A stretch of DNA of 64,000 bases from a virus. Location: the IMG/VR virus record IMGVR_UViG_3300032285_004186; one strand, 5' to 3'. This document shows, one piece after another, positions 3,949 to 45,000 of this stretch. Within the stretch, counting starts at the first letter, position 1; each line of letters opens with the position of its first letter. A program made the translations under genes and the position numbers. The notes beneath the pieces are model-generated. The model was not told where the DNA came from. It saw nothing but the letters and a program-made list of their open reading frames with translations, and did not search any database.

Positions 3949-4206
3949 ATGTCTGATACAGAATTTACACAAGAAGAAATTCAATTAATTATTGAATCGT
4001 TATTGTATTGTGCTTCTTCTGAAATCAATCATACAAAATATCACGAAGATATAACTAGGGTTATAGAACTTGCTGTGAAATTGCGCCTCAAACATCAGGA
4101 CATTCCGTTAGATAATGTTTATTATTTCGATGGTAAAGTATTTACTTGTCCTTATGTAGATGAAATAAACAAATTCTTTCCGGAAATAAGATATACTGAT
4201 TTATGA
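3949..4206 (+). CDS. Hypothetical protein
   Basis: 85-aa ORF overlapping the next gene by ATGA. Confidence 0.55.
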   Translation: MSDTEFTQEEIQLIIESLLYCASSEINHTKYHEDITRVIELAVKLRLKHQDIPLDNVYYFDGKVFTCPYVDEINKFFPEIRYTDL

Positions 4207-4835
4207 AAATTGCTGTAGTAGGAACTCAATGTATAGGTAAGTCTACTTTTATTAAAGACTTTCTCAAAAAATGGCCGATGTATACCACGCCGGAAAAAAC
4301 TTATAGAGATGCAGTTAAGGAAAAAAATATTTCCATTAATCGTGAAGGTACAGAAGAATCTCAGCAAATTATTTTAGATTTCTTGGTGGATCAAGCTTTG
4401 TCTTGTTCTAAATCTGAAAATGTTATATTTGATAGATGTGTATTAGATAATTTGGCTTATTCTTCTTGGTTGAATTTAAACAATAAGGTTTCTGACAAAT
4501 TTCTAGATCAGTCTAGAATTTTAGTAAGAGAAACTTTAAAGATGTTTGATATTATTTTCTTTCTTCCTATTACCAAGGTATCTCCAGTTGCTATAGTGGA
4601 AGATGGTGTGAGGGATATAGATCCTACTTACAGAGAAGAAATAGATAACATTTTCAAGGTCTTTGTTAAGTCTTATCAATCCGGAGATGGAAGAGTATTT
4701 CCTAAGGGTGATAGCCCTCCAATTATAGAAATATACGGGAGTCCGGAACAGCGCATTGCCTTGACCTCTATGTATATTACTGAAGAAGGCAAACCATACG
4801 GAGAAGAACAAAGTCTCATAACAGACATTTATTAG
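4203..4835 (+). CDS. P-loop nucleotide kinase-like protein (AAA_28/NadR-type)
   Basis: KIAVVGTQCIGKST Walker A, VIFDRCVLD, DIIFFLP, EDGVRD, C-terminal GSPEQR. Confidence 0.75.
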   Translation: MKIAVVGTQCIGKSTFIKDFLKKWPMYTTPEKTYRDAVKEKNISINREGTEESQQIILDFLVDQALSCSKSENVIFDRCVLDNLAYSSWLNLNNKVSDKFLDQSRILVRETLKMFDIIFFLPITKVSPVAIVEDGVRDIDPTYREEIDNIFKVFVKSYQSGDGRVFPKGDSPPIIEIYGSPEQRIALTSMYITEEGKPYGEEQSLITDIY

Positions 4836-5854: not shown

Positions 5855-6814
5855 ATGAGGCAGTTACCTGGAAGTTATGTTTTAAGTAAGTTTTATACAC
5901 TAGCAGGGGAGCCTACTTTTCGTAAATTTGACGGAAATTATAATGCCTCTTGTCCTATTTGTCGTGAAGGTAAGAGCTGGTTGAAGAAAAAAAGACTTTA
6001 TTTTTATCCGTCAACCAGCTCTTTTTATTGTTTTAATTGTAACAAATCTTGGAATGCCCTTAATTGGATAAGAGAATCCTCTAATCTTACGAAGGAAGAA
6101 ATAGAATTAGAGGCATTTAGTGGTAGTTTATCTATTGATATCACAGATCATAATAAACAAGTCAAAAGTATGCGTAAGGAAAAACCTAATCTGCCACACG
6201 ATTCGTTGAATTTAAATGATTTGCAGCAACGCAAGTACTACCAGCCTTCTACTTATTTTCAATTGGCCTTGGAGTATTTGGAAAAGAGAAGATTAAATAC
6301 AGCTATTAATAAATCAGACAATTTTTATATAAGCTTGACAGATCATTTTCATAAAAATCGTCTTTGTATTCCTTATTATGATAGAAATAAACAAGTAGTA
6401 TTTTACCAAACCAGAAGTTTAGATGGTCAAGAACCTCGATATTTGAATAAAATTGGATATGATAAGACTGTTTTTGGTTTGGAAAGAATAAATCATCAAT
6501 TAGATTATATTTTTCTTTTTGAAGGTCCTATGGATGCCATGTTTGTTAAAAACGGAGTTAGTTTGGCGGGGTTATCTTTAACCAATATTCAAGAAAAACA
6601 ACTAGCTGAATTTCCTTTTCATGAAAAAATATGGATTCTAGACAATCCTAAAGCAGATCAGGCAGCTAGGGAAAAGATTTTTACATTAATAAATGCAAAA
6701 CAAAAGGTATTCCGCTGGCCTCTGGATAAACCCTATAAAGATTTCAATGAATGGGCTGTAAAAGAGGAAATAGACGAAATACCTTTAGATTTTATTTTAA
6801 ATTCTTTATATTAA
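5855..6814 (+). CDS. gp61: DNA primase (T4 gp61-like)
   Basis: Zn finger CPIC...CFNC, RLCIPYY, YQTRSL, TOPRIM FEGPMDAMF, ILDN, KDFNE. Confidence 0.9.
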   Translation: MRQLPGSYVLSKFYTLAGEPTFRKFDGNYNASCPICREGKSWLKKKRLYFYPSTSSFYCFNCNKSWNALNWIRESSNLTKEEIELEAFSGSLSIDITDHNKQVKSMRKEKPNLPHDSLNLNDLQQRKYYQPSTYFQLALEYLEKRRLNTAINKSDNFYISLTDHFHKNRLCIPYYDRNKQVVFYQTRSLDGQEPRYLNKIGYDKTVFGLERINHQLDYIFLFEGPMDAMFVKNGVSLAGLSLTNIQEKQLAEFPFHEKIWILDNPKADQAAREKIFTLINAKQKVFRWPLDKPYKDFNEWAVKEEIDEIPLDFILNSLY

Positions 6815-7359
6815 GACATCTTAGTTATGTCTGCATCTCTTTGTTTTTTAGGAGCCAGGTTAATAAATCCGTTTAATATTTCTCTTAATTTAGCCACTTC
6901 ACCAGCAACACGAGTAATACCATCTGAAGTTTTACGAGTAATACCTCTCATTAAAGAACCTGGCCTATCCACTGCGGCTAGAGTTTTAGCCAAAGATTGA
7001 CTTTGGGTGTCATTAATGAATTCTGTAAACTCTTCTAATTTTGCAGCCCATTTACCCATTTCAGAAATAGCATTGGCTGTAATATTAGGATCTACTCCTT
7101 GCGTATCAAAATTGTCTTTAGGTGTTTCATCTTCTAAAGAACCTTGAAAATCTGTTTGATTTTGGTCTGGGGTAAAATCTTCTGGTGCTTTGGGCTCTAT
7201 TCCTTCTTCTGCCTCTTTGACTAAGTGGGTAATAAAACTTCTAACAAAAGGAATGTAAGATTCATCACAACTACAAGATTGTTTGCTGGCTTTTAAGATT
7301 CTAGACACTTCTTTAGAAGATTTAGATTTATTTTTCTTAGTTTTCATTGAATTCTTCAT
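6811..7359 (-). CDS. Hypothetical late protein
   Basis: 182 aa; minus-strand TAAATA at 7377-7372; LVKEAEE site followed by an acidic linker and a helical domain. Confidence 0.55.
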   Translation of the reverse strand: MKNSMKTKKNKSKSSKEVSRILKASKQSCSCDESYIPFVRSFITHLVKEAEEGIEPKAPEDFTPDQNQTDFQGSLEDETPKDNFDTQGVDPNITANAISEMGKWAAKLEEFTEFINDTQSQSLAKTLAAVDRPGSLMRGITRKTSDGITRVAGEVAKLREILNGFINLAPKKQRDADITKMS

Positions 7360-7375
7360 GGATTTATAGTATATT
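7347..7375 (+). promoter_or_regulatory. Putative sigma70-type promoter TTGAAT-N17-TATATT for the queC operon
   Basis: -10 ends 6 nt before ATG 7382; overlaps a minus-strand TAAATA. Confidence 0.55.
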
Positions 7376-7381
7376 TACCTT

Positions 7382-8125
7382 ATGGATAGTGCAAACAACG
7401 ACAAGATTTGTGTAGTTTTATATAGTGGAGGCATGGATAGTACTGTAGTTTTGCATCATGCTTTAGCAAACTATAACAAGGTTTATGCCCTAGCTTTTGA
7501 TTATGGACAGAGGAACATAAGAGAATTGACCGGAGCTGAAAATTACATCACAAATTATATTTTAAAATCTTCTTATGCAGAGAAATTAAAGTATTCTCGT
7601 ATGCCCTTACCGGTAAAATTTTTAAATTTTAATTCTGCATTAACAGATGAGAATATAGAAGTGCCTAAAATGAAAGAGGTTATTGGTGATCCACAAAATG
7701 TAGCGTATGTTCCAAATAGAAATATGATTTTTTTGTCCCTAGCGGTGGGCATGGCGGAAAGTGTCGGCGCGCCTGATGTTTTATATGGAGCAGCCAAGGC
7801 TGACGACACTTCAGGTTTTTGGGATTGTACACCAGATTTTAGAAATTATCTTAACACTATTCTTTCTCTTAATCGTAGAAATCGTATAGAGATTAAAACT
7901 CCTTTAATAGACAAAACAAAAAAAGAAATTATCGAATATGGTTTAGAATTGGGTGTAGAGTTTGGTTGGACAAGAACCTGTTATACAGAACATGAAAATT
8001 CTTGCGGAGAATGTCCAAGTTGTTCGGCTCGAATTGCCGGTTGGTTACATACAGGTAAGATAGACCCATTGAAATATTCTAGAGAAATTGATTGGCAAAA
8101 ATATAATTGTCAATCAATATACTAA
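7382..8125 (+). CDS. queC: QueC-family ATP pyrophosphatase (7-cyano-7-deazaguanine synthase-like)
   Basis: PP-loop YSGGMDS, FDYGQR, YVPNRNMIFLS, TPL..KTK, Zn site TCY...CGECPSC. Confidence 0.9.
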   Translation: MDSANNDKICVVLYSGGMDSTVVLHHALANYNKVYALAFDYGQRNIRELTGAENYITNYILKSSYAEKLKYSRMPLPVKFLNFNSALTDENIEVPKMKEVIGDPQNVAYVPNRNMIFLSLAVGMAESVGAPDVLYGAAKADDTSGFWDCTPDFRNYLNTILSLNRRNRIEIKTPLIDKTKKEIIEYGLELGVEFGWTRTCYTEHENSCGECPSCSARIAGWLHTGKIDPLKYSREIDWQKYNCQSIY

Positions 8126-8128
8126 TAT

Positions 8129-8761
8129 ATGTGTGGCATAGCAGCAGCTCCAACGTTTGAAAAGGCTTTTAATTTATACAGATTAAATTTACATCGAGGC
8201 AGTTATTCTTCTGGCTTAATGTCTGTAGATACTAAGACAGGTGCTTATTTTATATATAAACAACAAAAAGCATTTGAAGAAATAGAATCTTTGCTTTGGA
8301 AGATAGAACAAAGTAGAAATAATTTTGATTACTTTCTTTTTCATTCAAGAGCCCCCACCAACAGCACAGAAACACTATGGACTGCAGAAACTACTCATCC
8401 TTTTGCATATGATAATTGTCATGTAGCCCACAATGGTATTATTACAAATTTTCAAGAACTTAATAAAGATTTGAATTTTAATGTAGACACACAAATAATA
8501 CCATACAATCTAATAAAGACATACAATATACAAGAAACATATTCCAACTTGCAAGGATTGCTTACTAGTTGGATAGTTTGGGGTAAAGATGTACATGTAA
8601 TTAAAGCTGGTAGCTCTTTATGGATGGACAAAGATTCTTTTTCTTCTTCAAAATTTGAAGGTGCTCACTACATAGAGGAAGACGGTGTAATATTTAATTA
8701 TATTAATAATAAATTTGAAAAAAGTGGAACATTTCCTTATACAAGTACATATTTTATATGA
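8129..8761 (+). CDS. Class II (Ntn) glutamine amidotransferase
   Basis: N-terminal MCGI nucleophile, HRG..SSG, HSRAPT, HPF, AHNGII, VDT. Confidence 0.85.
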   Translation: MCGIAAAPTFEKAFNLYRLNLHRGSYSSGLMSVDTKTGAYFIYKQQKAFEEIESLLWKIEQSRNNFDYFLFHSRAPTNSTETLWTAETTHPFAYDNCHVAHNGIITNFQELNKDLNFNVDTQIIPYNLIKTYNIQETYSNLQGLLTSWIVWGKDVHVIKAGSSLWMDKDSFSSSKFEGAHYIEEDGVIFNYINNKFEKSGTFPYTSTYFI

Positions 8762-9444
8762 AAAAAATAACAGCAGTAATTGCCACACAGGCAAAATCTA
8801 TTCAAGAATTTGAAAAACGACCCATTTTTAAATCTTTACAACGACATCATGATTCTAAAGATTTATTTTCAGCTGGTAAATTTGATTTTGTCTTAGTTAA
8901 AGACAATAAAGAGGGGTTGCCTAAAGTGTATAATAAATTTTTGCAAGATTCTAAATATCAAAAAGACATTCTTTTATTTGTTCATGATGACGTTGAATTA
9001 GAAGATTTGTTTTTGATAGAAAAATTGCAAAATTCACCCTACGAGGTTACCGGTTTGGCTGGTACTAAAAAAGCAAATTTAAATAAACCACCCGGCTGGC
9101 ATTTAATGAGCACAAAAGAAGACTGGGTAGGTGAAGTAGCCCATGCTGATTCCTCTGGAGTTTGGACGACAGTTTTTGGTCCAACTAATTCCAGGGCTTT
9201 ATTAATAGACGGACTTTTTATAGCAGTAGATGTTAAAGCTATAAATGAAAAAAATGTTTCATTTAATGAAAAATTTGAATTTCATCATTATGATTTATCT
9301 TTTTGTTTAGATTGTAACAAAGCCAAGGTAAAAATAGGAGTTTTGCCTATTAGAGTCATACATCACGGTTTGGGCGACAGTATGCTTTCAGAAGAATGGA
9401 AAGTTAGTGCTGAAATCTTTAAACAAACCTACGGTACAAATTAA
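8758..9444 (+). CDS. GT-A glycosyltransferase (GT2-like, Glyco_tranf_2_5-type)
   Basis: GLPKVYN, LLFVHDDV (DxD-type), GLAG, IDGLFIAV, FNEKFEFHHYDLSFC. Confidence 0.8.
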   Translation: MKKITAVIATQAKSIQEFEKRPIFKSLQRHHDSKDLFSAGKFDFVLVKDNKEGLPKVYNKFLQDSKYQKDILLFVHDDVELEDLFLIEKLQNSPYEVTGLAGTKKANLNKPPGWHLMSTKEDWVGEVAHADSSGVWTTVFGPTNSRALLIDGLFIAVDVKAINEKNVSFNEKFEFHHYDLSFCLDCNKAKVKIGVLPIRVIHHGLGDSMLSEEWKVSAEIFKQTYGTN

Positions 9445-9466
9445 AAATTACATTTACAATAAACAC

Positions 9467-10060
9467 ATGAGTAGATCAAAAATATACAAAGATGAAGATT
9501 ATGATGGATCTTTGATTCACGGACGATTTGGGTATAAAATTTTTCGTAAGAATTATAATCCATTAGGGGTGATTCATATTACCAGGGGCAATATGGATGT
9601 TAAAGACAATTTAATTGATTTAGAAGATAAATTAACAAATGATTTCATTTACTCCGAAGATGCTTTGAGTATTTGTTGGGAGATTCCTAACATGAATCCG
9701 ACAGGAGCTGTATTCTTTCAAAGACTTTTTATGCAAGAAATTGCTAATCTTTTTAGAACAGATCAATTCGGAATTTACGATCTTTATGTTGACGGAGATG
9801 ATTTAATGTTGCGTAAAAAAGGCATGGGTGAAAATAACAGAGAAGAATTCGGTAAGGCCAGTGTCAGTATCACTAAGGTAACAGACAATATTGCACTGGG
9901 TCATATTGGTATCAACATCTCCGCAGGATCAAGAGCTCCTAGTTTTGCTTTTTCACTATATTTGACAGATGAAAAAGTAGATGAATTGGCCAGTGTAATT
10001 GAAGAAATTTTCTATGATATTCTTCAAGATTGTTTTATAGCTACTACCAAGGTGATTTAA
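9467..10060 (+). CDS. DUF366-family protein (class II aaRS/biotin-lipoate ligase-like fold)
   Basis: YDGS...RGNMDV...IDLED...DFIYSED...FQRL...GDDL...KASVSI...HIGINI match DUF366 motifs as recalled. ATG 9467 preferred over the track start at 9407. Confidence 0.7.
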   Translation: MSRSKIYKDEDYDGSLIHGRFGYKIFRKNYNPLGVIHITRGNMDVKDNLIDLEDKLTNDFIYSEDALSICWEIPNMNPTGAVFFQRLFMQEIANLFRTDQFGIYDLYVDGDDLMLRKKGMGENNREEFGKASVSITKVTDNIALGHIGINISAGSRAPSFAFSLYLTDEKVDELASVIEEIFYDILQDCFIATTKVI

Positions 10061-10449
10061 TGATTAAGAAAAAATATAATGATGATTTATTTGTGTATCT
10101 TGATTGGCTTCTTAAAAAACCAATCAAGGATTTACAATTGCAAAATGTGCCGTCTACTTTTATCACCAATAGATGGTTGTCTATGACAAATGTAGATATA
10201 ACAAATATTGTTAATACAACATTTAATAGATGGCTTTTGTCTAAAAATTTTAGTTCAGACAATTCATTGGCTTCTAAATTTTATCGGATAGTAATTCCTA
10301 AATTTAATAAAAGAATATCTTATATTAAAAAACCAACTCTAGAAAATTCCAAGGATATTGAAGATGTTTCTTATCTTGCAAAAAATTTAGAAATGTCTCA
10401 AAAAGAAATAGAAATGTATAATCAAACCCTTGATTATTTAAACCTTTAA
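10060..10449 (+). CDS. gp62: Clamp loader small subunit (T4 gp62-like)
   Basis: FITNRWLSM, FYRIVIPK..KRISYIKK, LAKNLEMSQKE resemble gp62 blocks; ATG 10060 overlaps the upstream TAA. Confidence 0.6.
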   Translation: MIKKKYNDDLFVYLDWLLKKPIKDLQLQNVPSTFITNRWLSMTNVDITNIVNTTFNRWLLSKNFSSDNSLASKFYRIVIPKFNKRISYIKKPTLENSKDIEDVSYLAKNLEMSQKEIEMYNQTLDYLNL

Positions 10450-22025: not shown

Positions 22026-22559
22026 ATGAAAAGATATGCTCTATGTGGCGCACATGGTACTGGTAAAACCACAGTTTTGCAGGATATTGCAGATTATTTG
22101 ATAGACGAAACAGAGATAAAACCAATCTTTAATACAAGTAATGCTCGTAATTTGTTTAAAATGGGTATAAAAGTTAATGATAAAGGTGATGATTTTGTTC
22201 AATATGTAGTACAGGCAAGCCATGTTAGTCGATTTGCAGAACCTAATTGGTTTGCAGATCGTTGTGTGGTAGATGGATTTGCTTATATGGAAGCAGCATC
22301 AAGGAGACAATTGGTATCCAGGGATTGTTGGAATACAGTTTATACATTAATGGATACATTTGCTCCGTTATACACTCAAATTTTTTATGTTCCTATAGAA
22401 TTTGAAATGGAAAATGATGGGGTACGAAAAGTTGATATAGAATATCAACAAGAAGTAGATCGATATATGTCAAAAGCGTTGAAGAATTATAATAATGTTA
22501 CAATTGTAAAAGGAAATCGTGCGGAACGTAAAGAACTTGTATTAAAATACATTGCATGA
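22026..22559 (+). CDS. Second AAA_28/NadR-type P-loop kinase
   Basis: GAHGTGKTT, FADRCVVD, IFYVP, NDGVRK, KGNRAER. Confidence 0.75.
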   Translation: MKRYALCGAHGTGKTTVLQDIADYLIDETEIKPIFNTSNARNLFKMGIKVNDKGDDFVQYVVQASHVSRFAEPNWFADRCVVDGFAYMEAASRRQLVSRDCWNTVYTLMDTFAPLYTQIFYVPIEFEMENDGVRKVDIEYQQEVDRYMSKALKNYNNVTIVKGNRAERKELVLKYIA

Positions 22560-31691: not shown

Positions 31692-34600
31692 ATGGCTAGC
31701 AGTATACAAGCTTTTAATATACAAACTTTAGGTTCTTGGCCTACAGAAACCTATCAAATAAGCCCACTGGATCAATATATAGATCCCAATGCCGGGTTTT
31801 TGCCGGCTGAAAACATGTTTCGCTACTTAAATGTAGCCATGAATGAAACTGACTCTTTACATACTGTTAATTATTATGGTATAAATTACAAATTTTCTGA
31901 TCCACCAATCAGTCAATATGTTATAGATACATCTCGTAATTCTTCTTTGGTATGGGATTTATCTTCTCATCGAAAAGCATACAATTTCGGACCTCAAATT
32001 AATTACTTGTATATATTGTCCAATCCAGGTGTAGATAGTTTGTATCAAAAATACTATGCTACTCTCACATATCCCTCTAGATTATTTTTAAAACCTTTAA
32101 ATTTACGGAAAAATGCCTCTTCTTGGACCCTTACTACCAGTTCTGTTTTAGTATCTGCCCAATCTTTCTTTTTTTCTGGTTCATCTCATGAAATAGCTTC
32201 TTATTTGCAGCACATTTCTTATTTAAATTCTCCACCAACATTTATTCCTTTACCTAATGATATAAAAAACAATTTTGTATTTGAATTATCTAGTTGTCGC
32301 ATGCAGGTAAACACACCACTGGTGATGTTTACAGATACCTTTAACCCAGCAAAAGCTAGTCGAACTTTAGATCGATTGGGAGGAGTTATACGCCCGGACT
32401 CAACTTTTATTACTTATAATATAAATTATTACAATAAACAAAATAATAAGATTACATCACTATCTCAAGTGACACCTGACGTAGATCATTTAGCTCCGCA
32501 TGGATTCAAAACATCATATATCCTTAATCAATCTGAGTTATCTAGTAGTAGTTTGCAAAAATATCAATTATTACAATATAAACCATTTGATAATGTCACT
32601 GATAATTTGGCATCACCATTTTTATGTATATTAAGTGCGGTTTTTAATCTTACATCTACTAATTTACAATATTTTAATTTACAATTTGCAAGAGACAATT
32701 ACACCCTCTACACGGCAAGCACAGGTACTCCGGGCAGCATAATAGGAGCTTCCTACATAGTAGACAGCGATAGAATGCTCTTTTCCACAGAAACCAGTCA
32801 AAGTACTCTTTCTTCTTTTCAAATAAACGGAATTTCTAAAAATCTAGGCATTCCTGTAAATTATGCATATCTAACAAACAATTCTTCTTGGACTACAAAA
32901 TATCCGCCTCATTATTATAGTTATAAAAATTCTTTATATTCTCCACTTAACGGATTTTCTAATAATAAATCTGATACTTGCAATCTTACTTTTTATTTAC
33001 AAACTTCTGTTGTAAATTTACAAACAACTAGTGCTCTTTTATCATCTTTTATATCTTCAGATCACAACATTTTGTCTTATAATCTTCCCGACAATAATGT
33101 AAATGAATATATTAAATATGAATTAATTTCTGATAATAGTTTAATCAGAAACACTCAATCTTTAAGTGCTATTAATTTTTATTACGGCTCTTCAACTTTT
33201 AGTTCTCCTTATAACATAATTTCATCTCCATGGGTGTCAGTTACAAGTGGGTGTCAATTATATATAGATTATCCAGGAGCACCATACGGACAAACTTCTT
33301 TAACAATACGTTCAACTCTAAGTTCTGCGGCTGGATACCTAGCATCTAGACAAGTAGCTGAAGTTTCTTTAGCACCTGGAATATTTCAAAGTGCTGTAGG
33401 GCATCCTATTTTCTTAGATAGAGTCGACCAAGGCCCAGATTATTTTGATGTTTCTTGCTCTATGTTAACAGCCTCTCCTGGATGGCCTACTAAAGATTTG
33501 CGAGATAGCTATATTTCCTGGAGTTTTACGCCTCAAGATTTAAATGCTCAACTTTTGTCTATAAATTCAGCTGGATCTGTTCTATTAAATCTATCAGCCA
33601 ATCAGCCTTATCGTTTTTCAGATTTTACAAATTCTGTAAGGTTGTCAGGTATTGGGTTTTCCACAGCAGTTATATACCTTTCGTCTCAAAAATATAATCA
33701 AGTTACTTCTCTTACTTCCATTTCTAGTTTATATGATCCTTTTTATTTAAAACAATTTGTTATAAATCCTCAAATTCCTTTAGCCAATGAAAATAAAACT
33801 AGAACTATAACTCTTTTTGCTCAATTACCATTTGCTAATCAACTTTATGACATACCTTTAGGCACTTCTGTGTTTTGGGAGTGGGATTATTTAACAAACA
33901 CAGCTCCTACCAGGGGTCCTATAAACGTTTATTATGGTCCTTTAAAGACTCCATACACATATGGTCAGGAAATGGATATAACATCTTTAAGTTCAATTTA
34001 TATTGAAATTACTCCTCAAGAAAATGATAATATTCCAATATTAAATCATGCAAGATTTCGTTTAAGTAGTAAAATTAGAAACCCTCAAATATCTAGTATA
34101 TATGAAGTAGTGGTTGATGATTTTCCAGCTCGCTCCATTTTTAATTCAGATTTTAAAATTGGATATACAAATTACCAACAAACAGAAGGTATTATATTAG
34201 ATACAGGTTTAAACAATTTTACAGTAACCCGCCCAAATGACGGCACCAATGTTTTTTCCCTTTCTAGTTATGCTAATTCTCACATTAGTCCAAACACAAC
34301 TTATGTATGGACCATTTCAGACGATGCAAACACTCTCTCTTCTCAAAAAATTTTATATTCTAATCATGTTATAAATTATGATATTAACCCTAGAGCCTCT
34401 GTTACTACTATAACTCTCAGTGCTCTCTCGGCTGTATTGACCCCGTGGTTTAATTTAAATATTACAGGCAACACAGAATTTTCTAACACAAATCCGGTCC
34501 ATAGTGTAGAAACATCTGTTACAGTATTTACACCAACCACGGCAGATTTTTACAAACCTTTAGAATTTATTATATATCCAGAATATGCTTGGTTAGGTGG

Positions 34601-37478
34601 GAGAAATTTAACTATATTAAATCAATCAAACTATACTTTATCTAAAGCACCTTCTGCATATCAGCATAAAAAATCTAATAGCCAGACATATTGGATAAGT
34701 GCTAATAAATTTTTTAATCAATATGATTATTGTATTGGTTCTAATTATCTATTTTTGTCTTCTTTAAGCAGTAATATAGGAATAATAGATATTCCATACT
34801 CCACAGAAATGTTTGATATTTCCGGATTAACAATTTCTTTGTCCGGGTTTAGTGATCTATATCCACCAAATCATACCATTTCTTATTTTAAACCTGATAA
34901 AGATTTTTTAAAGTCTTTTAATTTTTATATAACAGCTGCAACCAGTGTTTTATCTGGCAATTCTTATCTAAATTCTTTTAAATCTAATCCGTTTATAGTT
35001 CCTTACAATACAGATATAGATTTTACCTTTTCTTTAGCCAAGACTTCTCTGGATTTAAATTATAACAGAACAATTACCATTACTCAGCATTTTTCCGCTA
35101 AACCTTACAATTCTCCAGTAAGACCCCTAACTGAATTTGGTACAGTTACTTATTTACTTTCTACTAATTTTTGGTCCAAAGAAATCACTCTTCCGTCTAT
35201 AGACGGCACTTTCAACGCTCTTTATTTAAAAACCGGTGACCCCTATGAGGAAGGATATGTAAGTGATTCTCAAACAAATTATCTAGCATTTAAACCACTT
35301 TTTAGTAAAATGTTTTATCAAATACCCTCGTCTACTTTTGATAATTATTCTATAACTGATTATGAAGGTCAAAGAGATTTGTGGAATAAAGATACACAAA
35401 TAACTTATTTTCCAACATCAAATACTGGTCCGTATAAATGGCAAACTTTAGTTACTCACGTTACGGGTTTAAAACCATTAATTTTTGTGTCAGACTATAT
35501 AGCTCTTACTGGACAAGAAATATATATACAATATTCCATGCCAGATGAGCTAAAAGAACATTATCATAATGTAGCTTATTATGCTACAGATTTTGGTGAA
35601 ACTGGCTCGACTTATATTTTACCAACCACTAGTCTACCTTATCAATTAAGCAAATATCAATATTCTTCTACTGGATCTTTTTTTATACAATACTCTGCAT
35701 TTTATACAGATGGAGCTCTCAAAACCGGAGAACTTTTAGATCCTATCACAATCAAACCTTATTGGACTCAATATGATCAAAGTGTTATAAGAACCATAGA
35801 TGAAAATTCTTTAATTTTTCCTTATTCTTTAGAACAAACCACTATTCAACCTAATGAGTGGGGAGATGTTGATATCTTTAATACTTCAGTTTCTCGCTTA
35901 TATAACAATTTGCAATATTTGCAAGATAACATACAAACAATTAATTCTGATACACCCACATTACTTTATGGTTGGTTAGGTGGAAATGTTTATACTAAAT
36001 CTCAAGGCATTCGTTGGTTTGTTCGAAATTTTGATCCAAAATATTATCTTTTTCCTAATTATGCCTCAACCACCAATAGTGTATCTGCATTCTATAATAT
36101 AGAAGACATAGCTATTAATAATGATTACATATATGTATTAGATAATTATAAACTTAGATGTTTTTATAATAAATCTTACAAACCTATAGAGACTTTTTTT
36201 GATTTATCTTCTTCTTGGAATTTGGAAATGGTTGCTCCTAATAGTTTAGATATAGATTTAGAGACTTCTGATTTATTTATTGTAGACCCTCCTCGCAATA
36301 AAATTGTTCGTTTGAATGTAGATCTACAAACTCCAGCCATTAATTTTTCAGTTAATGTTGGTGGATTTGGATCTCGATTAGATTCCAGCAAATTTAACGC
36401 ACCTTCTCAGGTAGTTGTAGCCAATAATAGTGTTTTTGTTTTAGATTATAATAATAAATGTGTTAAAGAATATACCAAGGATCTTAATTGGATGCACACC
36501 TATTATCATCCAGATTTTGAAACTAATTCTCCCATTAGTATAGCCAGTAATCAAACTGGCTTAGTTTATATAGCCACGTCAACTTTTAAAATTTATATTT
36601 TTTCTGATGCAAATCCATCTACTCCAGTAGTTAATTTTACATTAACAGAAATGCAAAATTTAAATATAAAAATTGTTAAAATAATTTTAGATAAATTTGG
36701 CGGATTTTTATATGTTAACGGTATCAAGAAAACATTTAAATATACCTCCACACCTATAAAAACAAATAACAATTCTTATGTAGGAGTTTTTATAGGCATA
36801 ATGAATTTAAATTTTTCATCTTCTTCCATTAAAAACGGATCTAATCAAAATTTATTTTTATCAACTAAAAACGCGATTATTAGAGTACAAGACATAGTTG
36901 CTTTATTTAAAATTGGCAAAGGCTTGCCTTATTCAAATTGGACGCAAGAGCAATTATTGTTAAACAAACAAGAATTTGCTTCTGATTTAAACTATAATAA
37001 ATGTTTGCAGCGTTTAGTACAAAATGTTAAAACTTTTAGAAATAATTTAAATGCTAAATTTGTTAAATCTCTTAAAAAAACTGCTGTAGGAGATGTATCT
37101 TATTTTGCCATGGCTCCTATTTCTGTATCAGATCTACCTGTATTTGAAGATGATGTAGAAAATGAATTGGTTAATATTGGAGTCAATGAATTACATATAC
37201 CTCAGGTTTTTAATAGAGAAATATCTAAAATTTACAGATCTTTAGATTTATTAAGAAATTTTTTAAATATATCTCAAATATCAGAACCAACTACACAGAC
37301 TATACAAGAAAGTTTTTGTTGGTCTTGGAAGGCTACTTCTTGTTATAATTTAACCTTGCCTTCTATTAAAGTATTAGATGTAAATCCTATTACTTATACA
37401 GAATTAAAAGCAGACTTTCCTGTAGATTATGCACCCTCTAAATATTGGAAAGATGCTCAATCTAATTGCTGTTCTTAA
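31692..37478 (+). CDS. 1928-aa virion structural protein with C-terminal NHL-type beta-propeller
   Basis: TAAATA 6 nt upstream; Ser/Thr-rich beta content; LFIVDPPRNKIV, GGFG....SKFNAPSQV, VFVLDYNNKCVKEY. Confidence 0.65.
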   Translation: MASSIQAFNIQTLGSWPTETYQISPLDQYIDPNAGFLPAENMFRYLNVAMNETDSLHTVNYYGINYKFSDPPISQYVIDTSRNSSLVWDLSSHRKAYNFGPQINYLYILSNPGVDSLYQKYYATLTYPSRLFLKPLNLRKNASSWTLTTSSVLVSAQSFFFSGSSHEIASYLQHISYLNSPPTFIPLPNDIKNNFVFELSSCRMQVNTPLVMFTDTFNPAKASRTLDRLGGVIRPDSTFITYNINYYNKQNNKITSLSQVTPDVDHLAPHGFKTSYILNQSELSSSSLQKYQLLQYKPFDNVTDNLASPFLCILSAVFNLTSTNLQYFNLQFARDNYTLYTASTGTPGSIIGASYIVDSDRMLFSTETSQSTLSSFQINGISKNLGIPVNYAYLTNNSSWTTKYPPHYYSYKNSLYSPLNGFSNNKSDTCNLTFYLQTSVVNLQTTSALLSSFISSDHNILSYNLPDNNVNEYIKYELISDNSLIRNTQSLSAINFYYGSSTFSSPYNIISSPWVSVTSGCQLYIDYPGAPYGQTSLTIRSTLSSAAGYLASRQVAEVSLAPGIFQSAVGHPIFLDRVDQGPDYFDVSCSMLTASPGWPTKDLRDSYISWSFTPQDLNAQLLSINSAGSVLLNLSANQPYRFSDFTNSVRLSGIGFSTAVIYLSSQKYNQVTSLTSISSLYDPFYLKQFVINPQIPLANENKTRTITLFAQLPFANQLYDIPLGTSVFWEWDYLTNTAPTRGPINVYYGPLKTPYTYGQEMDITSLSSIYIEITPQENDNIPILNHARFRLSSKIRNPQISSIYEVVVDDFPARSIFNSDFKIGYTNYQQTEGIILDTGLNNFTVTRPNDGTNVFSLSSYANSHISPNTTYVWTISDDANTLSSQKILYSNHVINYDINPRASVTTITLSALSAVLTPWFNLNITGNTEFSNTNPVHSVETSVTVFTPTTADFYKPLEFIIYPEYAWLGGRNLTILNQSNYTLSKAPSAYQHKKSNSQTYWISANKFFNQYDYCIGSNYLFLSSLSSNIGIIDIPYSTEMFDISGLTISLSGFSDLYPPNHTISYFKPDKDFLKSFNFYITAATSVLSGNSYLNSFKSNPFIVPYNTDIDFTFSLAKTSLDLNYNRTITITQHFSAKPYNSPVRPLTEFGTVTYLLSTNFWSKEITLPSIDGTFNALYLKTGDPYEEGYVSDSQTNYLAFKPLFSKMFYQIPSSTFDNYSITDYEGQRDLWNKDTQITYFPTSNTGPYKWQTLVTHVTGLKPLIFVSDYIALTGQEIYIQYSMPDELKEHYHNVAYYATDFGETGSTYILPTTSLPYQLSKYQYSSTGSFFIQYSAFYTDGALKTGELLDPITIKPYWTQYDQSVIRTIDENSLIFPYSLEQTTIQPNEWGDVDIFNTSVSRLYNNLQYLQDNIQTINSDTPTLLYGWLGGNVYTKSQGIRWFVRNFDPKYYLFPNYASTTNSVSAFYNIEDIAINNDYIYVLDNYKLRCFYNKSYKPIETFFDLSSSWNLEMVAPNSLDIDLETSDLFIVDPPRNKIVRLNVDLQTPAINFSVNVGGFGSRLDSSKFNAPSQVVVANNSVFVLDYNNKCVKEYTKDLNWMHTYYHPDFETNSPISIASNQTGLVYIATSTFKIYIFSDANPSTPVVNFTLTEMQNLNIKIVKIILDKFGGFLYVNGIKKTFKYTSTPIKTNNNSYVGVFIGIMNLNFSSSSIKNGSNQNLFLSTKNAIIRVQDIVALFKIGKGLPYSNWTQEQLLLNKQEFASDLNYNKCLQRLVQNVKTFRNNLNAKFVKSLKKTAVGDVSYFAMAPISVSDLPVFEDDVENELVNIGVNELHIPQVFNREISKIYRSLDLLRNFLNISQISEPTTQTIQESFCWSWKATSCYNLTLPSIKVLDVNPITYTELKADFPVDYAPSKYWKDAQSNCCS

Positions 37479-39073: not shown

Positions 39074-42000
39074 ATGAATTCTTTATCTGCTAATGGTGAA
39101 ATAAAAATAACAGACCTCAGCCCGGCCAGAGATTTAAGGGCCAGTGATTTATTCATAGCAGCCACTCATCTTGATGGTTCTGCGGATATAACTACACAAT
39201 CTGTTTCTTCTTGTGTACTTTTAAAGTATATTTTAGCCAACGGAGCATATAATTTTGCACCAGATCTTTCTAGCATCGGCGCTCATACTTGTAATCCTTC
39301 ATTATATGGTAGTTTTGTATGTGATGTTAACTCTAAACATTTTACTATAATTCCTTCTCATCCATTACCTATATGTGAACCTTCTTTTGAAGCTCCTAAT
39401 TTAGGCACAGATTCTTATTATTCTAACATTGGCGGTGGTGTGGGAAATATTGTTTGGGGTTTAGAGACAACCATTGGTGGTGGATGTCGTAATGTGGTAA
39501 TGGATAGTAATTCTGTTATTGCTGGGGGGAAAAATAATTTTATTAATTGTTGCGGCTCCACAATTGCTGGGGGTGAAGACAATACCAGTTGTGATATCTA
39601 CACATCCATAGGTGGTGGAAATAATAACTTAATTAATCAAGTAGGTGGAACTATTGCCGGTGGAGAATACAATTATATTACTCAACCAGCAGGAGAAGAT
39701 ACAAATTATCAAGGAGCTGCTATAGTAGGAGGTTCTTGTAATGCCTTATCTGGATGTTTTGCTTTTATAGGTGGTGGATATCATAATTCGGTACAACAAA
39801 ACCACTCTTCTATAGTTGCAGGAAATTGTAATTTAATTTCTTCTTCTTTCAGCACAATTGGTGGTGGGCAAAATAATATTATATCTGGAAATTGTGGAGT
39901 TATAGGAGGAGGTTCTTTCAATCAATTAATATGTAACGGATCTATTATTGCTGGTGGAGATCATAATAGCACCGCTGGAGATTATTCAACAATTGGTGGT
40001 GGGAACTATAATTCTGTACAAAATTGCTTTTCTCAAATTGGCAATGGTGAACATAATTGCATAACCGGAGTTAAGTCTGTTATAAATTCTGGTACAGAAA
40101 ATTATATAGCAGGTGATTATGGTTTTGTAGGAAATGGTTTTTGCAATACTGCTAATTCTAATTTTAACATTATAACTAATGGAATGTATAATAATTCTGT
40201 TAGTGCTCATGCTACTATCATTAACGGTATTTGTAACAATACAATAGGAGACAAAGCCACCATTATTAACGGATGTCTTAATTCCGCAACATCAGATTAC
40301 ACTTTAATAGGTAATGGATGTAATAATGCATCCTCTGGCACAAATTCAACAGTTATTAATGGTATTTGCAACTCTTCTTCTGGTTGCAATAGCTTAATAG
40401 GTTCTGGTTGTAATAATCTAGCATCGGGATTTGAATCTCTTGTACTCAACGGAAATAATAATTCTTCTCACGGAATTAATAGTTCTATAATTAATGGATT
40501 TTCTAATTCTTTAAGTGGCAATTTAGCATCTATTATTAACGGTAGTAATAACTCTGCTATTGGCAATTGTAGTTTGATAGGCGGCGGTGCTTATAATAAT
40601 ACAAACGGGGTTTATTCTATTGTTGTTAATGGTTGCTGTAATATAGCATCTGCAAATCATGCTTCTGTAAATAATGGTTATTGTAATATTGCCAGCGGAG
40701 TCAATGCCACTGTTGTTAATGGTACATGTAATACTTCCTCCGGTAATTATAGTTTAATAATTCAAGGTTCGTGTAACTCTTCTCAAGGAATTAATTCAAC
40801 TATAATAAACGGGTATTGTAATACTGCTGTTGGAAATAATAGTTTTATAATCGCTGGCTGTTGTAACCTTGCTCTTGGTAGCAATTCTTCTGTTTTTACG
40901 GGCTGTAAAAATATATCTATATGCTCCAGCGGTTCTATAATATCTGGTTTTAGCAATACGGTATCTGCTATTCAGGCTACAATAGTTTCTGGCTCTAACA
41001 ATTTAGCCACTGGTTACAACAGCTTAATAGTTTCTGGATGTAATAATAGTACTGGTAACACTTCTTCAATTATTCTTGGTGGGTGTTTTAATACCTCTAA
41101 CGGAGCCAATAGCTTAATAACTGCAGGTTGTAGCAATGTTACACTTGGAACAAATTCCACAATTATCAACGGTGTCTGTAATGCTTCACAAAGCAATTAC
41201 AATTTGATAGCCAGTGGATGTTGTAATACAGTTACGAACAATTATTCTATTGTCCTAGGAGGGTCTAATAATTGTGTAAATGGTGCATCTAGTTCTATTA
41301 TAAACGGAACTGCTAACTTTTCTCCCGGATCCGGTAGTTTAATAGGATCTGGTAATTGTAACTCTTCTTGTGGAGCAAATTCTTCTGTTTTAAATGGAAA
41401 TTGTAATACTTCTTCTGGCAATTGCAGCACTGTAATAACTGGTTATTGTAATACTGCTTCTAATAATAATTCAGTTATTGTGGCTGGATGTTGTAATAAT
41501 ATAACAAGTGAGTATAGTATTATTAATAATGGCAAATGTAATTCTATTTCCGGCAATTATTCTGTTATAGCTGGCGGTTCAAATAATATTGCTGCTGGAG
41601 TTTGTAGTATTGTATCTGGCGGCTATGGAAATTGTGCTTTAAATCCAATTTCTTTAATAGTTGGTGGTTATTGTAATGTTTCTTCGGCAAATGGTAGTTC
41701 TATAATAGGTGGCAACTGCAATATCTCTTCTGGAACAAATTCTGCCATTATAAACGGTTGTTATAACAATGTTTCCGGAAAATGTAGTATAATCGGCAGT
41801 GGTTGTTGTAATCTAGTAACCAATGATTATTCTATTATAATTTCCGGGCGTAATAATTTTTCTTGTGGTAGCAATGATTTGATAGGAACTGGATTTTTTA
41901 ATTCTTTATCCGGTTCAAATTCTACTATAATCAACGGTGGATATAATTCAATTAATGGAAATTTTGCTTTAATAGCTGCTGGTTGCTATAATATAGCTGA

Positions 42001-45000
42001 CGGAAACTATTCTTCTATTATTAATGGTTGCAACAACATTTCTTCTGGAACAAATAGTACAGTAATCAATGGTCAAAACAACTCTATTAGTGGGTCTGAT
42101 TCTTCAATTATTAACGGTTGCTATAATTCTAGCTCCGGCAATTGTTCTTTAATAGGATCCGGAACAAACAATAATACTTCTGGCAACTTTTCAGTGATAA
42201 TAGATGGTTATTGTAACGTTTCATCCGGAAATAATAGTGTAATAGTCAATGGATGCAACAATATAGCATCTTCAGATTTTGCTAGTGTTTTTAACGGTAT
42301 TAAAAATACAGCCAACGGAGCTAGTAGTTTAGTGGCCAGTGGGTGTAATAATATTGCTTCAGGAAACAATGCTGTTATTTTTAGTGGATCCAATAATTTA
42401 GCATCCAATAATAACGGTCTTGTAATATCTGGGTTATATAATGCTTCTTCCGGTATTAACTCAACCATTATAGCCGGAGCCTTTAACAGTGCTTGCGGAA
42501 ATTATGGATTAATAGTAAATGGGTGTCAGAATGTTGCTTGTGGAGACTATTCTTTAATATTAAATGGATGTTTTAATACCTCTTCCTCTAATAATGGTAT
42601 AATAGCCGGGGGATATCTTAATACATCTTCTGGAAATTATTCCACAATATTAAATGGTAATAATAATTGTGCTTCAGGTAATCGCAGTTTAATAGCTTCC
42701 GGAACCTATAATGTTGCTAGTAATAATAATTCAGTTGTTTTTAGTGGTAATAATAATAGATCTAGTGCTTTTAACAGTACTATAATAGGTGGAGTTTGTA
42801 ATTCAGCCTCTGCTAACAACGCTTCTATTATCAATGGTAGTTGTAACAATGTATCTGCAGAATGTGGTTCTGTAATTTCTGGTAGCTGTAACAATGTATC
42901 CGGAGTTTATGGGTCTATAATTAATGGAAGATGTAATTCTATTAACTCTGATAATTCCTTTATAGCAGGTGGAACCTGTAATCAAAGCAATTTTCAACCC
43001 AATACTTTTATTTTAGGGTCTTGTATTACAGCCACTCGACCTGATTTCACTTATGTAAATAACTTAACATCTAAGAATGAAATTTATGCTGCAAATAATG
43101 TATGTAGTACAAATATTTGTGCTACACAATATATTCATTCTAGCATGGATATGTGTGCCTCAAATGTGTCTTACGGAAATATAGTATGTGGTACATCTTT
43201 TGTATGTTCACCTCAGTCTTTTTCTTCTATATGCTCTGTAACACCATTTTTAAGTGCTCAAAATGCTTGTGTATCCGATACAGTACATACTTCAATAGTT
43301 TGTTCAGATACATGCGTAGATGCTTGTTATCTTGTATCTAATAATATTCTTAGTAATCAATCTATCACTAATACCGGTATTTTAACCAATATAGGCACTC
43401 TTTCCAGTATTGGTTCTATTTGTAATTCTGGAAATATTAACAACATCGGTTCCGTTTGTAATGTTGGTATTTTGTGTAATATAGGCACTATTTGCAACTC
43501 ATCTGGTTCTATAAATAGTGATAATGACATTACAGTAAGTAGTACTGGTAGATTTTTAAGTGCTGGACACGACCTCATAGAATTATTCAATGCCTATACA
43601 GCTGGTCCAGGTTTTTATAAAACCCCAGCTGTAAATGAATTTGTGGGTGATGGTACAACTGTTATTTTCAGTTCGCCAGACTTTGCTAGCGTTAACCCAA
43701 ACAATTATATCATTTCTATTGGTGGATTGACTCAGAGACCTAATATAGATTTTACTTGCAATTATTATTATAAAGGGTCAGTTATCTTTAATGTTCCCCC
43801 TCCAGCCGGAGAAATTGTCACTATTTATTCTAATCAAAGCAGTGAAACTGGAAGAGAAATGATTGGATTTTTTAATCCGCAATATACAACAATTACTTCT
43901 TCTAATACTGCTCAATATTTATTACCCGGCTCTGTATATAATGGCGATGATGCTAACGGATACGTAGTAGCAGTTTCTGGTTTGGTTCAGAGACCGTATA
44001 CAGATTTCACGGTTACTAGTGCTTTTAACGGACAATATGGATTTGTAGGCGGTGTATTAACTCTTTCTAATACACCAGCTTCTAATATACCTATAGTGGT
44101 TTATTCCTATAAATTTACTGGATTATCTATTTATAATTCCATCATGCAGTATCTTTCTAGTACTAATTATGGGGTTCCAGTTTCATCTATAGTAGTTCCT
44201 AGTTTAACCGCCACTGTTGGTATAACCGCTCCGTGGATTAATACTCCAATTATATCATACAACACAGGCACAACTGTAAGAGGAGATTTAACTATTACAG
44301 GCGGGTTGACCACTTTAGGCGGAATTACTTTCTTAGGCTCTCAGGTTTCAAACACTACAGCTTTAAGTGTCGTGAATAACGGACCCGGAACTGCTTTATT
44401 CATTTCACAATTTAACACGGCATCTCCTATTGCATCTTTTTATGATTCTCAAGCGAATAAAGAAGTCTTGAGAATAGGTTCTACCGGAGCTATTAGAAAT
44501 GTCGGAATCTATACATCTACTCCTAATAAAACTTTAACAGTCACGGGAGATATAAGTGCCTCTGGATATTTATATGCCGGAAAAAGTCTTATTACCGGCC
44601 TAGGCACTTCTGTAGAAGACTCTGCTATTGAATTGGGAACGGATAGAACTGGTGACGGTAATGCTTATATAGACTTACACACTTCTGTAGGAACAGATTA
44701 TAATGCTCGTTTTATTAGATTATCTGGAATAAATGGTGCGGCATCTCTTACAAACATCGGCACCGGAAATCTTTCAATAACCCAGGAAGGAATTGCTCCT
44801 ATAATCTTTAATACTTCCGATACTGAAAGAATGCGCATTGGATCTGGAGGTAATATTGGTATAGGAACCTCTAATCCGAGAAGTTTTGTTGAAATATTAA
44901 GTTCTCAAAATGCCTCCACTGGATTGTTAATAAACAATCAAAGCAATCAACCTCTAGCTGAGTCTAGTTTAAACATTGGTGCTTACGGAGGAACTTGGTC

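What the first reader, a model, noticed from the sequence alone, without database searches (positions are those of the whole stretch)
7347..10060. QueC - Ntn amidotransferase - GT2 glycosyltransferase - DUF366 operon: candidate undescribed modification pathway
Seen: four tightly spaced genes (gap of 3 nt, ATGA overlap, gap of 22 nt) behind one sigma70-like promoter, among the primase and clamp-loader genes. Established: fused Gat-QueC makes archaeosine/deoxyarchaeosine in crenarchaea and some phages; QueC homologues in QatABCD and type IV CBASS instead conjugate deazaguanine to proteins; an Ntn glutaminase plus a PP-loop ATPase is also the asparagine-synthetase architecture used to amidate sugars. 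Inference: split QueC/Gat plus a glycosyltransferase and a ligase-fold DUF366 fits no pathway I know. It could make a glycosylated or otherwise hypermodified deazaguanine in DNA, an amidated glycan, or a protein adduct. No folE, queD, queE or dpdA is visible in this window.
Basis: partly seen in the sequence, partly recalled or inferred. Interest (0 to 1): 0.85.

Follow-up and report, generated by a model that had tools for sequence, protein, structure and literature searches.

The report
Deazaguanine DNA-modification genes, bystander glycosyltransferase
Three of these four tightly packed phage genes (QueC, a separate glutaminase and DUF366) belong to a scattered system of a known kind that swaps guanine in phage DNA for a 7-deazaguanine, the sugar transferase between them is a resident gene kept by relatives that lack that system, and the one new lead is DUF366, which is inherited with the pathway but has no known role.

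Summary
The four genes exist as described: QueC 7382-8125, Ntn glutaminase 8129-8761, GT-A glycosyltransferase 8758-9444, DUF366 9467-10060, with a 3-nt gap, an ATGA overlap and a 22-nt gap. The promoter match is no better than chance, and tight packing continues past 10060.

They are not one self-contained new pathway. Relatives, and the window's own phage population, also encode a QueE-like radical SAM enzyme, a QueD-like PTPS and a DpdA3-like protein. The DpdA3-like model folds as a tRNA-guanine transglycosylase. All three lie 20-40 kb away, beside DNA polymerase, uvsX and gp41.

Six complete relatives carry QueC, Gat, DUF366, QueD, QueE and DpdA3-like together. Three complete genomes and one 92% complete genome carry none of these but keep the glycosyltransferase at the same site. 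DUF366 is therefore inherited with the pathway, and the glycosyltransferase is not.

The same split QueC-then-Gat pair occurs in Vibrio phage KVP40.

Verdict: a new variant of the DpdA3-type 7-deazaguanine DNA-modification system in an uncultured T4-like phage clade. A sugar-bearing deazaguanine is unlikely but not excluded. The role of DUF366 is the open question.

This scan found the same cluster earlier on other genomes. One such note led me to the test that changed my reading.

The parts
7382..8125 (+). QueC, 7-cyano-7-deazaguanine synthase (PP-loop ATPase); pathway member
   Evidence: PF06508 1.8e-53 and TIGR00364 above its equivalog cut-off. SGGMDS at residues 15-20; Cys200 plus CxxCxxC at 208-214. 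Present in 6 of 6 pathway-positive complete relatives and in none of the four pathway-negative ones, three complete and one 92% complete.
8129..8761 (+). Stand-alone Ntn (class II) glutaminase, inferred ammonia donor for QueC; pathway member
   Evidence: N-terminal MCG is conserved in relatives and in KVP40.0125. Weak GATase_6/7 and GlmS N-terminal hits; phrog_12378, phrog_4736. It lies within about 2.5 kb of QueC in nearly all loci that hold both (two exceptions, QueC 8.6-9.7 kb away), and is directly adjacent in KVP40 and Vibrio phage 2.275.O. Absent from pathway-negative genomes.
8758..9444 (+). GT-A glycosyltransferase (Glyco_tranf_2_5, called GT25 here); resident gene of the wider phage group, not inherited with the pathway
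   Evidence: PF13712 3.4e-8. AF2 model pLDDT 93; best solved match is the UDP-binding GT-A majastridin 2qgi (E 2e-9, TMq 0.69). HDD motif at 76-78 is invariant. Kept as primase-GT25-d139-GroES in genomes without any deazaguanine gene.
9467..10060 (+). DUF366 (COG2029) protein; inherited with the pathway, function unknown
   Evidence: PF04017 9.4e-17. A family profile hits PDB 2ddz (PH0223, no assigned function) at 4e-32. 46 invariant columns among 15 phage homologues. Present in 6 of 6 pathway-positive and 0 of 4 pathway-negative genomes.
10060..10449 (+). Next gene (129 aa from the ATG at 10060), start overlaps the DUF366 stop; conserved syntenic neighbour, listed only to show that the unit runs on
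   Evidence: TAATG overlap. It follows DUF366 in 91 of 92 loci, and directly follows the GT where DUF366 is absent.

Best explanation
The window comes from an uncultured T4-like myovirus. QueC, the separate Ntn glutaminase and DUF366 are the locally encoded part of a dispersed DpdA3-type 7-deazaguanine DNA-modification system. Proposed route: GTP is converted to dihydroneopterin triphosphate by host FolE (some relatives carry their own FolE). QueD-like PTPS then makes CPH4, and the QueE-like radical SAM enzyme makes 7-carboxy-7-deazaguanine (CDG). QueC, fed with ammonia that the glutaminase releases from glutamine, makes preQ0 (possibly the amide or the amidine). A TGT-fold DpdA3-like transglycosylase encoded next to the DNA polymerase exchanges guanine in phage DNA for the deazaguanine, which should protect the DNA from restriction. 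Gene identities, folds, linkage and co-inheritance are shown. The reaction order, the ammonia hand-over, the final base and the protective role are inferred from the characterised families. DUF366 is gained and lost with these genes, so it probably acts in the pathway, either as a tailoring enzyme or as a helper of base exchange; its step is unknown. The GT-A glycosyltransferase sits in the middle of the cluster but belongs to the wider phage lineage and works without the pathway.
For: QueC is canonical. Relatives: the four genes are syntenic in IMG/VR contigs. Complete genomes G001, G006-G009 and G015 each carry QueC, Gat, DUF366, QueE-like (phrog_2076, about 1e-45), PTPS and a 265-298 aa protein of phrog_19058. 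That phrog_19058 protein matches phiST DpdA3 (CGPG_00065) at E 3e-9 to 6e-4. It cross-hits the phiST family phrog_20335 and the reverse also holds. Its AF2 model (pLDDT 92) has tRNA-guanine transglycosylases as all top 50 solved matches (E about 1e-7, TMq 0.62-0.69). Same phage population: the exact GT protein of the window (P0121) and a DpdA3-like protein (P0258) occur in the same sample ERR2848522, and both are recorded on a 141,493-bp contig. L146 shows gp46, QueE-like, GT-B, DNA polymerase, DpdA3-like, ThyX, UvsX, PTPS, gp41 in that order. G008 and G009 add FolE beside QueD-QueE. G007-G009 add a bimodular QueF 1-2 kb from DpdA3-like, one ORF between. Complete G011, G012, G014 and 92%-complete G010 have the GT but none of QueC, Gat, DUF366, DpdA3-like, QueE-like or PTPS. 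In the GT tree, pathway-negative loci are interleaved with pathway-positive ones. KVP40 has the same QueC-then-Gat pair beside folE, a 459-aa ORF that is probably its DpdA2, and a QueF-like gene. KVP40-like phages carry dPreQ1 in DNA (PMC10516641), which needs preQ0, so the split pair can make preQ0.
Against: No modified base has been measured. The DpdA3-like, QueD-like and QueE-like genes are not in the 64-kb window, and their presence in the same genome rests on a shared sample and a shared contig length, not on read sequence. The QueE-like and QueD-like proteins score far below the NCBIfam equivalog cut-offs. The GT tree is a quick tree with many unsupported forks, so the number of independent losses is uncertain (at least two forced by supported branches). 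In every pathway-positive arrangement the GT is embedded among deazaguanine genes: QueC-Gat-GT-DUF366, QueC-GT-Gat-DUF366, uvsX-QueC-Gat-GT-gp41 and DpdA3like-GT-DUF366. A pure bystander model explains this only by calling the site an insertion hot spot. DUF366 homologues in Bdellovibrionales lie beside FtsK, MurB and DivIVA, not beside que genes.
Confidence: 0.7

Rival explanations
1. One reading: the four genes act together, and the GT-A enzyme adds a sugar to the deazaguanine (free base, nucleotide or in DNA), giving an undescribed glycosylated 7-deazaguanine.
For: The GT is a confident UDP-sugar-type GT-A. In pathway-positive phages it always lies among deazaguanine genes, in four different arrangements. 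It moved together with QueC-Gat to the uvsX-gp41 slot in G007-G009, at only 27-41% identity. One weaker solved match (rank 25) is AvpGT, solved in complex with the nucleoside Ara-A.
Against: Three complete genomes and one 92% complete genome keep the GT at the same site with no QueC, Gat, DUF366, QueD, QueE or DpdA3-like gene, and their GTs interleave with those of pathway-positive phages. PreQ0 has no obvious acceptor group on its 7-substituent. QueF is present in one clade and absent in the other, although both have the GT.
Confidence: 0.13
2. The genes raise host or phage tRNA queuosine or preQ0 supply to favour translation of an AT-rich genome, and DNA is not modified.
For: No FolE or classical TGT Pfam hit in G001. 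Phage que genes without a recognised DpdA have been explained this way in older literature (own knowledge).
Against: A TGT-fold DpdA3-like protein is inherited with the que genes and sits beside DNA polymerase. No tRNA genes in the window. According to PMC10516641, every phage known to carry a 7-deazaguanine in its DNA encodes a DpdA, which that paper calls a signature of such modifications.
Confidence: 0.07
3. Gat plus the PP-loop enzyme is an asparagine-synthetase-like amidotransferase that amidates a sugar or glycan built with the GT. Alternatively, the QueC homologue conjugates a deazaguanine to protein, as in Qat or type IV CBASS.
For: The Ntn glutaminase plus PP-loop architecture is shared with AsnB-type enzymes. 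Related phages place large sugar-gene clusters at this site (L041, L011).
Against: QueC passes the QueC equivalog cut-off, while QatC scores 18.8 bits against a cut-off of 280. QueC and Gat are gained and lost with QueD, QueE and DpdA3-like, not with the GT.
Confidence: 0.04

Closest known systems
[quoted passage not shown]
   Same: QueD, QueE and a short TGT-like transglycosylase related to phiST CGPG_00065, encoded near the DNA polymerase; a QueC-family enzyme in some of these phages.
   Different: The transglycosylase belongs to a sister family (phrog_19058, not phrog_20335). The glutaminase is a separate gene. DUF366 is inherited with the pathway but has no tblastn match in any of 50,697 phage records, apart from one bacterial-looking record. 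FolE is often missing. The genes are scattered over three or four loci.
Vibrio phage KVP40 / nt-1 group (DpdA2 systems; PMC6884629, PMC10516641)
   Same: The same split arrangement, QueC followed directly by a roughly 200-aa Ntn glutaminase (KVP40.0124 and KVP40.0125). QueC is 34% identical; Gat is 27.5% identical over residues 1-107.
   Different: KVP40 uses DpdA2, has FolE and QueF in the same cluster, and has neither DUF366 nor this GT. In what I read of the two papers, the KVP40-type glutaminase is not discussed as a pathway component.
Gat-QueC of phage 9g and Crenarchaeota (archaeosine or dG+ synthase)
   Same: A class II glutaminase working with a QueC module.
   Different: There the two are one polypeptide with Gat at the N-terminus, and the product is G+. 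Here they are two genes with Gat downstream. In one clade they coexist with QueF, which needs preQ0.
PH0223 of Pyrococcus horikoshii (PDB 2ddz), the solved DUF366 member
   Same: Full-length profile match at 4e-32.
   Different: No function is assigned to either protein.

Membership tests
DpdA-dependent 7-deazaguanine DNA modification system | CDG/preQ0 synthesis genes (QueD, QueE, QueC) | tested here: met
   QueC is in the window. QueE-like (phrog_2076, about 1e-45) and PTPS are in all six pathway-positive complete relatives and in L146 from the same sample. QueD-QueE are adjacent or 1-1.3 kb apart in G007-G009.
DpdA-dependent 7-deazaguanine DNA modification system | A DpdA-family (TGT-fold) transglycosylase | tested here: met
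   Not in the window. Found in relatives and in the same phage population: matches phiST DpdA3, reciprocal PHROG cross-hits, and TGT as all top 50 fold matches. The HLLGCG and D-T-S motifs lie in the order of the TGT YLMGVG and DMFD motifs (the motif assignment is my inference).
DpdA-dependent 7-deazaguanine DNA modification system | 7-deazaguanine base present in virion DNA | not testable with these tools
   Needs LC-MS/MS or raw-signal analysis.
QueC (TIGR00364) | PP-loop SGGxDS, four-Cys zinc site, score above the equivalog cut-off | tested here: met
   SGGMDS; C200, C208, C211, C214; 164.6 bits against 150.3.
Gat-QueC fusion (archaeosine synthase type) | Glutaminase fused N-terminally to QueC in one polypeptide | tested here: not met
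   Two ORFs, with Gat downstream of QueC and 3 nt between them. The catalytic N-terminal Cys is present.
QatC / Cap9 protein-conjugating QueC homologues | Match to the QatC model and a Qat or CBASS gene context | tested here: not met
   NF041925 scores 18.8 bits against a cut-off of 280. The context is phage replication genes.
GT-A nucleotide-sugar glycosyltransferases | GT-A fold with a DxD-type metal/nucleotide motif | tested here: met
   pLDDT 93. UDP-bound majastridin 2qgi is the best match, then ppGalNAc-T2. Invariant H76-D77-D78. Donor and acceptor are untested.
DUF366 (PF04017) | Full-length match above the Pfam gathering score | tested here: met
   61.5 bits against 29.9; 2ddz at 4e-32 with the family profile.
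Class II aaRS / BPL / LplA-like ligases (the claim for DUF366) | Ligase fold and adenylate-forming motifs | not tested
The claim rests on recollection only.

The most novel reading that the evidence does not exclude
DUF366 is a new component of 7-deazaguanine DNA modification. It would be either a tailoring enzyme that gives these uncultured T4-like phages a base not yet described, or a required helper of DpdA3-type base exchange. That would be the first function for a family that has had a solved structure but no assigned role.
Probability: 0.35. Interest if true: 0.75.

Novelty: new variant of a known kind. Interest (0 to 1): 0.45.

Why it matters
The result places a large group of freshwater and marine T4-like phages among the deazaguanine-DNA phages. 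At least about 520 IMG/VR contigs carry DUF366, and no cultured phage has a capsid protein more than about 34% identical. Phages with DpdA3 are the ones reported to replace all their guanines, so this group's DNA may resist many restriction enzymes and may be misread by signal-based sequencing. The work gives DUF366 its first testable functional association. It shows that the split QueC/glutaminase pair is widespread and also occurs in the KVP40 group. It also removes a tempting but weak prediction, a glycosylated deazaguanine, by a presence/absence test.

Tried and rejected
(1) An intermediate reading of mine held that QueC-Gat-GT is the functional triad and DUF366 only a syntenic neighbour. 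It rested on the triad moving as a block in G007-G009. I rejected it after the presence/absence profile.

(2) The 433-aa gene next to the QueE-like gene (phrog_7162 'glycosyltransferase') was a DpdA candidate. Its alignment looks GT-B-like, it has no TGT features, and it is conserved beside DNA polymerase.

(3) Pfam TGT, KVP40.0122 (the 459-aa ORF I take to be DpdA2) and DUF6610/DpdA4 gave no hit in the relatives. Only DpdA3 matched.

(4) The AAA_28 kinase-like gene (window 4203-4835) follows QueE in some relatives and hinted at a nucleotide-level route. It is also present in pathway-negative loci, so it is not pathway-specific.

(5) The only phage-database hit for DUF366, 'Microcystis phage MaAM05', lies in a bacterial-looking region with secF, fliM and fabI.

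(6) Literature searches for DUF366, PH0223, PF04017 and COG2029 gave nothing useful.

(7) Cellular contexts of DUF366 (Bdellovibrionales) show no que genes. A diverse DUF366 alignment was too variable for a genome scan.

(8) Atlas and viral fold searches gave only unnamed phage clusters.

(9) Searching short contigs of the GT-DUF366-only class for QueC was uninformative, because they are 6-23% complete.
Full report
OBSERVATION. The window is a fragment of a T4-like myovirus with about 32% G+C. It carries portal, gp23-like capsid, prohead protease, clamp loader, baseplate wedge, gp15-like and primase genes. No cultured phage has a capsid protein more than about 34% identical, and no whole genome is held for the window.

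The four ORFs are as reported:
- QueC, 7382-8125.
- Ntn glutaminase, 8129-8761, after a 3-nt gap.
- GT-A glycosyltransferase, 8758-9444, with an ATGA overlap.
- DUF366, 9467-10060, after a 22-nt gap.

The family assignments hold. QueC has the SGGMDS PP-loop and the four-cysteine zinc site, and it exceeds the NCBIfam QueC equivalog cut-off. The glutaminase starts Met-Cys-Gly.

Two details of the observation do not hold. The promoter-like site is a 9/12 match in a region where such matches are as frequent as in shuffled sequence. The tight packing also continues: the DUF366 stop overlaps the start of the next gene.

RELATIVES AND LINKAGE. Twelve IMG/VR contigs with a close DUF366 keep the neighbourhood. 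In all that extend far enough, except the most distant one (L011, where glycosyltransferase genes take that place), QueC, Gat and the GT precede DUF366. Two gene orders occur, QueC-Gat-GT and QueC-GT-Gat.

A profile search shows at least 518 viral contigs with DUF366. In 92 loci examined it is followed in nearly all (91, 89 and 84 loci) by the same 129-aa gene, a GroES-like gene and a helicase. Only the roughly 20 closest loci have QueC-Gat-GT upstream. Other clades hold sugar-gene clusters or structural genes at that site.

In the complete genomes G007-G009, QueC, Gat and the GT lie together between uvsX and gp41, at 27-41% identity to the window and more than 40 kb from DUF366. At that point I read QueC-Gat-GT as the module and DUF366 as a neighbour.

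THE REST OF THE PATHWAY. All complete relatives that have QueC also have a QueE-like radical SAM protein (phrog_2076, about 1e-45; its top five NCBIfam hits are all QueE models, though far below their cut-offs) and a QueD-like PTPS. In G007-G009 these two are adjacent or 1-1.3 kb apart, and G008 and G009 also carry FolE beside them.

Pfam TGT, KVP40.0122 (probably DpdA2) and DUF6610/DpdA4 found nothing. The DpdA3 of Cellulophaga phage phiST (CGPG_00065, identified in PMC10516641) matched 272-298-aa ORFs in G006-G009, and these are orthologous to a 285-aa gene right after the DNA polymerase of G001. The proteins belong to phrog_19058 and cross-hit the phiST family phrog_20335; the reverse cross-hit also holds.

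One member, P0258, comes from the same sample as an exact copy of the window's GT, and both proteins are recorded on a 141,493-bp contig. Its AlphaFold model (pLDDT 92) has tRNA-guanine transglycosylases as all fifty best solved matches. The signature enzyme of deazaguanine DNA phages is therefore present. It lies about 20-40 kb from the cluster, in the order gp46, QueE-like, GT-B, DNA polymerase, DpdA3-like, ThyX, UvsX, PTPS, gp41.

WHICH OF THE FOUR GENES BELONG. A note from an earlier follow-up on another genome stated that related phages keep the GT after losing the system. I tested this.

A scan for GT relatives found at least 547 viral contigs. Of 48 loci with at least 4 kb on both sides:
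- 23 are primase-GT-129-aa gene-GroES, with no QueC, Gat or DUF366.
- 9 have all three (QueC, Gat and DUF366) beside the GT.
- 9 have QueC-Gat-GT only.
- 5 have DUF366 but no QueC or Gat. Three of them (and a shorter fourth locus, which lacks DUF366) have DpdA3-like directly upstream of the GT.
- 2 have Gat-GT-DUF366, with QueC 8.6-9.7 kb upstream.

Complete genomes G011, G012 and G014, and the 92%-complete G010, contain the GT but no QueC, Gat, DUF366, DpdA3-like, QueE-like or PTPS. G015, like G001 and G006-G009, contains all of them. That is 6 of 6 against 0 of 4 for DUF366 and for each pathway gene. In a quick GT tree, pathway-negative loci interleave with pathway-positive ones, and supported branches force at least two changes of state.

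DUF366 is therefore inherited with the pathway, although it is not always adjacent to it. The GT is a resident gene of the wider lineage. Its model (pLDDT 93) is a UDP-sugar-type GT-A, closest to majastridin (2qgi), and gives no clue to the acceptor.

MECHANISM. QueD, QueE and QueC should make preQ0 from host-derived (or, in some relatives, phage-derived) dihydroneopterin triphosphate.

The separate glutaminase is best read as the ammonia donor for QueC. The same QueC-then-Gat pair stands in KVP40 next to folE, a probable DpdA2 and a QueF-like gene, and in Vibrio phage 2.275.O. KVP40-like phages carry dPreQ1 (PMC10516641), which requires preQ0. A role as G+ synthase, as for fused Gat-QueC in phage 9g (PMC6884629), is not excluded for the window's clade, which lacks QueF.

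The DpdA3-like protein would then exchange guanine in DNA. The characterised DpdA3 phages replace all guanines (PMC10516641).

DUF366 has 46 invariant positions among phage homologues, which suggests an enzyme, but nothing here assigns its step. Its cellular homologues in Bdellovibrionales lie among cell-division genes.

WHAT REMAINS ODD. The GT is embedded among deazaguanine genes in four different arrangements, yet it is dispensable for, and independent of, the pathway by presence/absence. An insertion hot spot between primase and the GroES-like gene would explain this, and the sugar clusters at the same site in L011 and L041 fit that idea. A facultative action of the GT on modified DNA cannot be excluded.

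NOVELTY. This is a new variant of a known kind of system. It is DpdA3-type, with a split glutaminase (shared with the KVP40 group) and a pathway-linked DUF366 that no studied deazaguanine phage has. Earlier follow-ups of this scan reached similar verdicts on other genomes, and the tests here are independent of theirs.

Noticed in passing
L123:7880-8836 (G008), between QueC and Gat: A 318-aa IMPDH/GMP-reductase-family gene (PF00478 8e-61) is inserted inside the QueC-Gat pair. A GMP-reductase homologue (ToyE) acts on a preQ0 nucleotide in toyocamycin synthesis (own knowledge), so this clade might process a deazaguanine nucleotide.
   Followed up: no
L125:5503-5976 (G007); L125:6675-8540 and L124:7135-8820: A GNAT acetyltransferase lies between Gat and the GT in G007. 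Opposite-strand ORFs of 561-621 aa lie between QueC and Gat in G007 and G009; the G007 one has no Pfam match (the G009 one was not scanned), and they may be mobile insertions.
   Followed up: no
L150-L152 (G007:161.4-162.0 kb; G008:10.4-11.1 kb; G009:180.0-180.7 kb): A bimodular QueF (314-324 aa) lies 1-2 kb from the DpdA3-like gene in G007 and G008 (about 8 kb away in G009). It is absent from G001 and G006, the window's clade. The two clades probably carry different final bases: preQ1-derived against preQ0, ADG or G+.
   Followed up: partly
L037:9099-10400 (G001), L146:5910-7226: A conserved 406-438-aa GT-B-like protein (phrog_7162 'glycosyltransferase') lies between gp46/QueE-like and the DNA polymerase, which recalls the position of T4 alpha-glucosyltransferase. 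Its target is unknown.
   Followed up: partly
window 4203-4835 and 22026-22559: Two AAA_28 / dNMP-kinase-like paralogues (phrog_2107). The first has homologues directly after QueE in G007-G009 and L041, but it also occurs in pathway-negative phages.
   Followed up: partly
L148:4202-7483 (43% G+C relative): GT and a divergent DUF366 are adjacent here, with a type-2 GTP cyclohydrolase I (GCHY-1/FolE2, 352 aa) 1 kb downstream. A 317-aa gene with no known family takes the place of QueC-Gat.
   Followed up: partly
L041 (JGI contig, 191 kb): DUF366 is embedded in a sugar cluster of about ten genes (four GTs, a DegT aminotransferase, three epimerases/dehydratases, UDP-glucose dehydrogenase) that starts right after QueE-like and the AAA_28 gene.
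   Followed up: no
L001 (MW495066.1, 'Microcystis phage MaAM05', 108-125 kb): The region around the only DUF366 hit among phage records encodes secF, fliM, fabI, glyS, a PBP-like transglycosylase and engB. It looks like bacterial DNA inside a phage record.
   Followed up: no
window 60897-62042 (-), 31692-37478 and 39074-47980: A second glycosyltransferase with a very strong PHROG match (phrog_3408, 7e-152), and two giant ORFs of 1928 and 2968 aa, presumably tail fibre or baseplate proteins.
   Followed up: no
window 6811-7359 (-): A 182-aa lysine- and glutamate-rich gene of unknown function is transcribed divergently from QueC. It is conserved at this position at 42-62% identity in relatives.
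   Followed up: no
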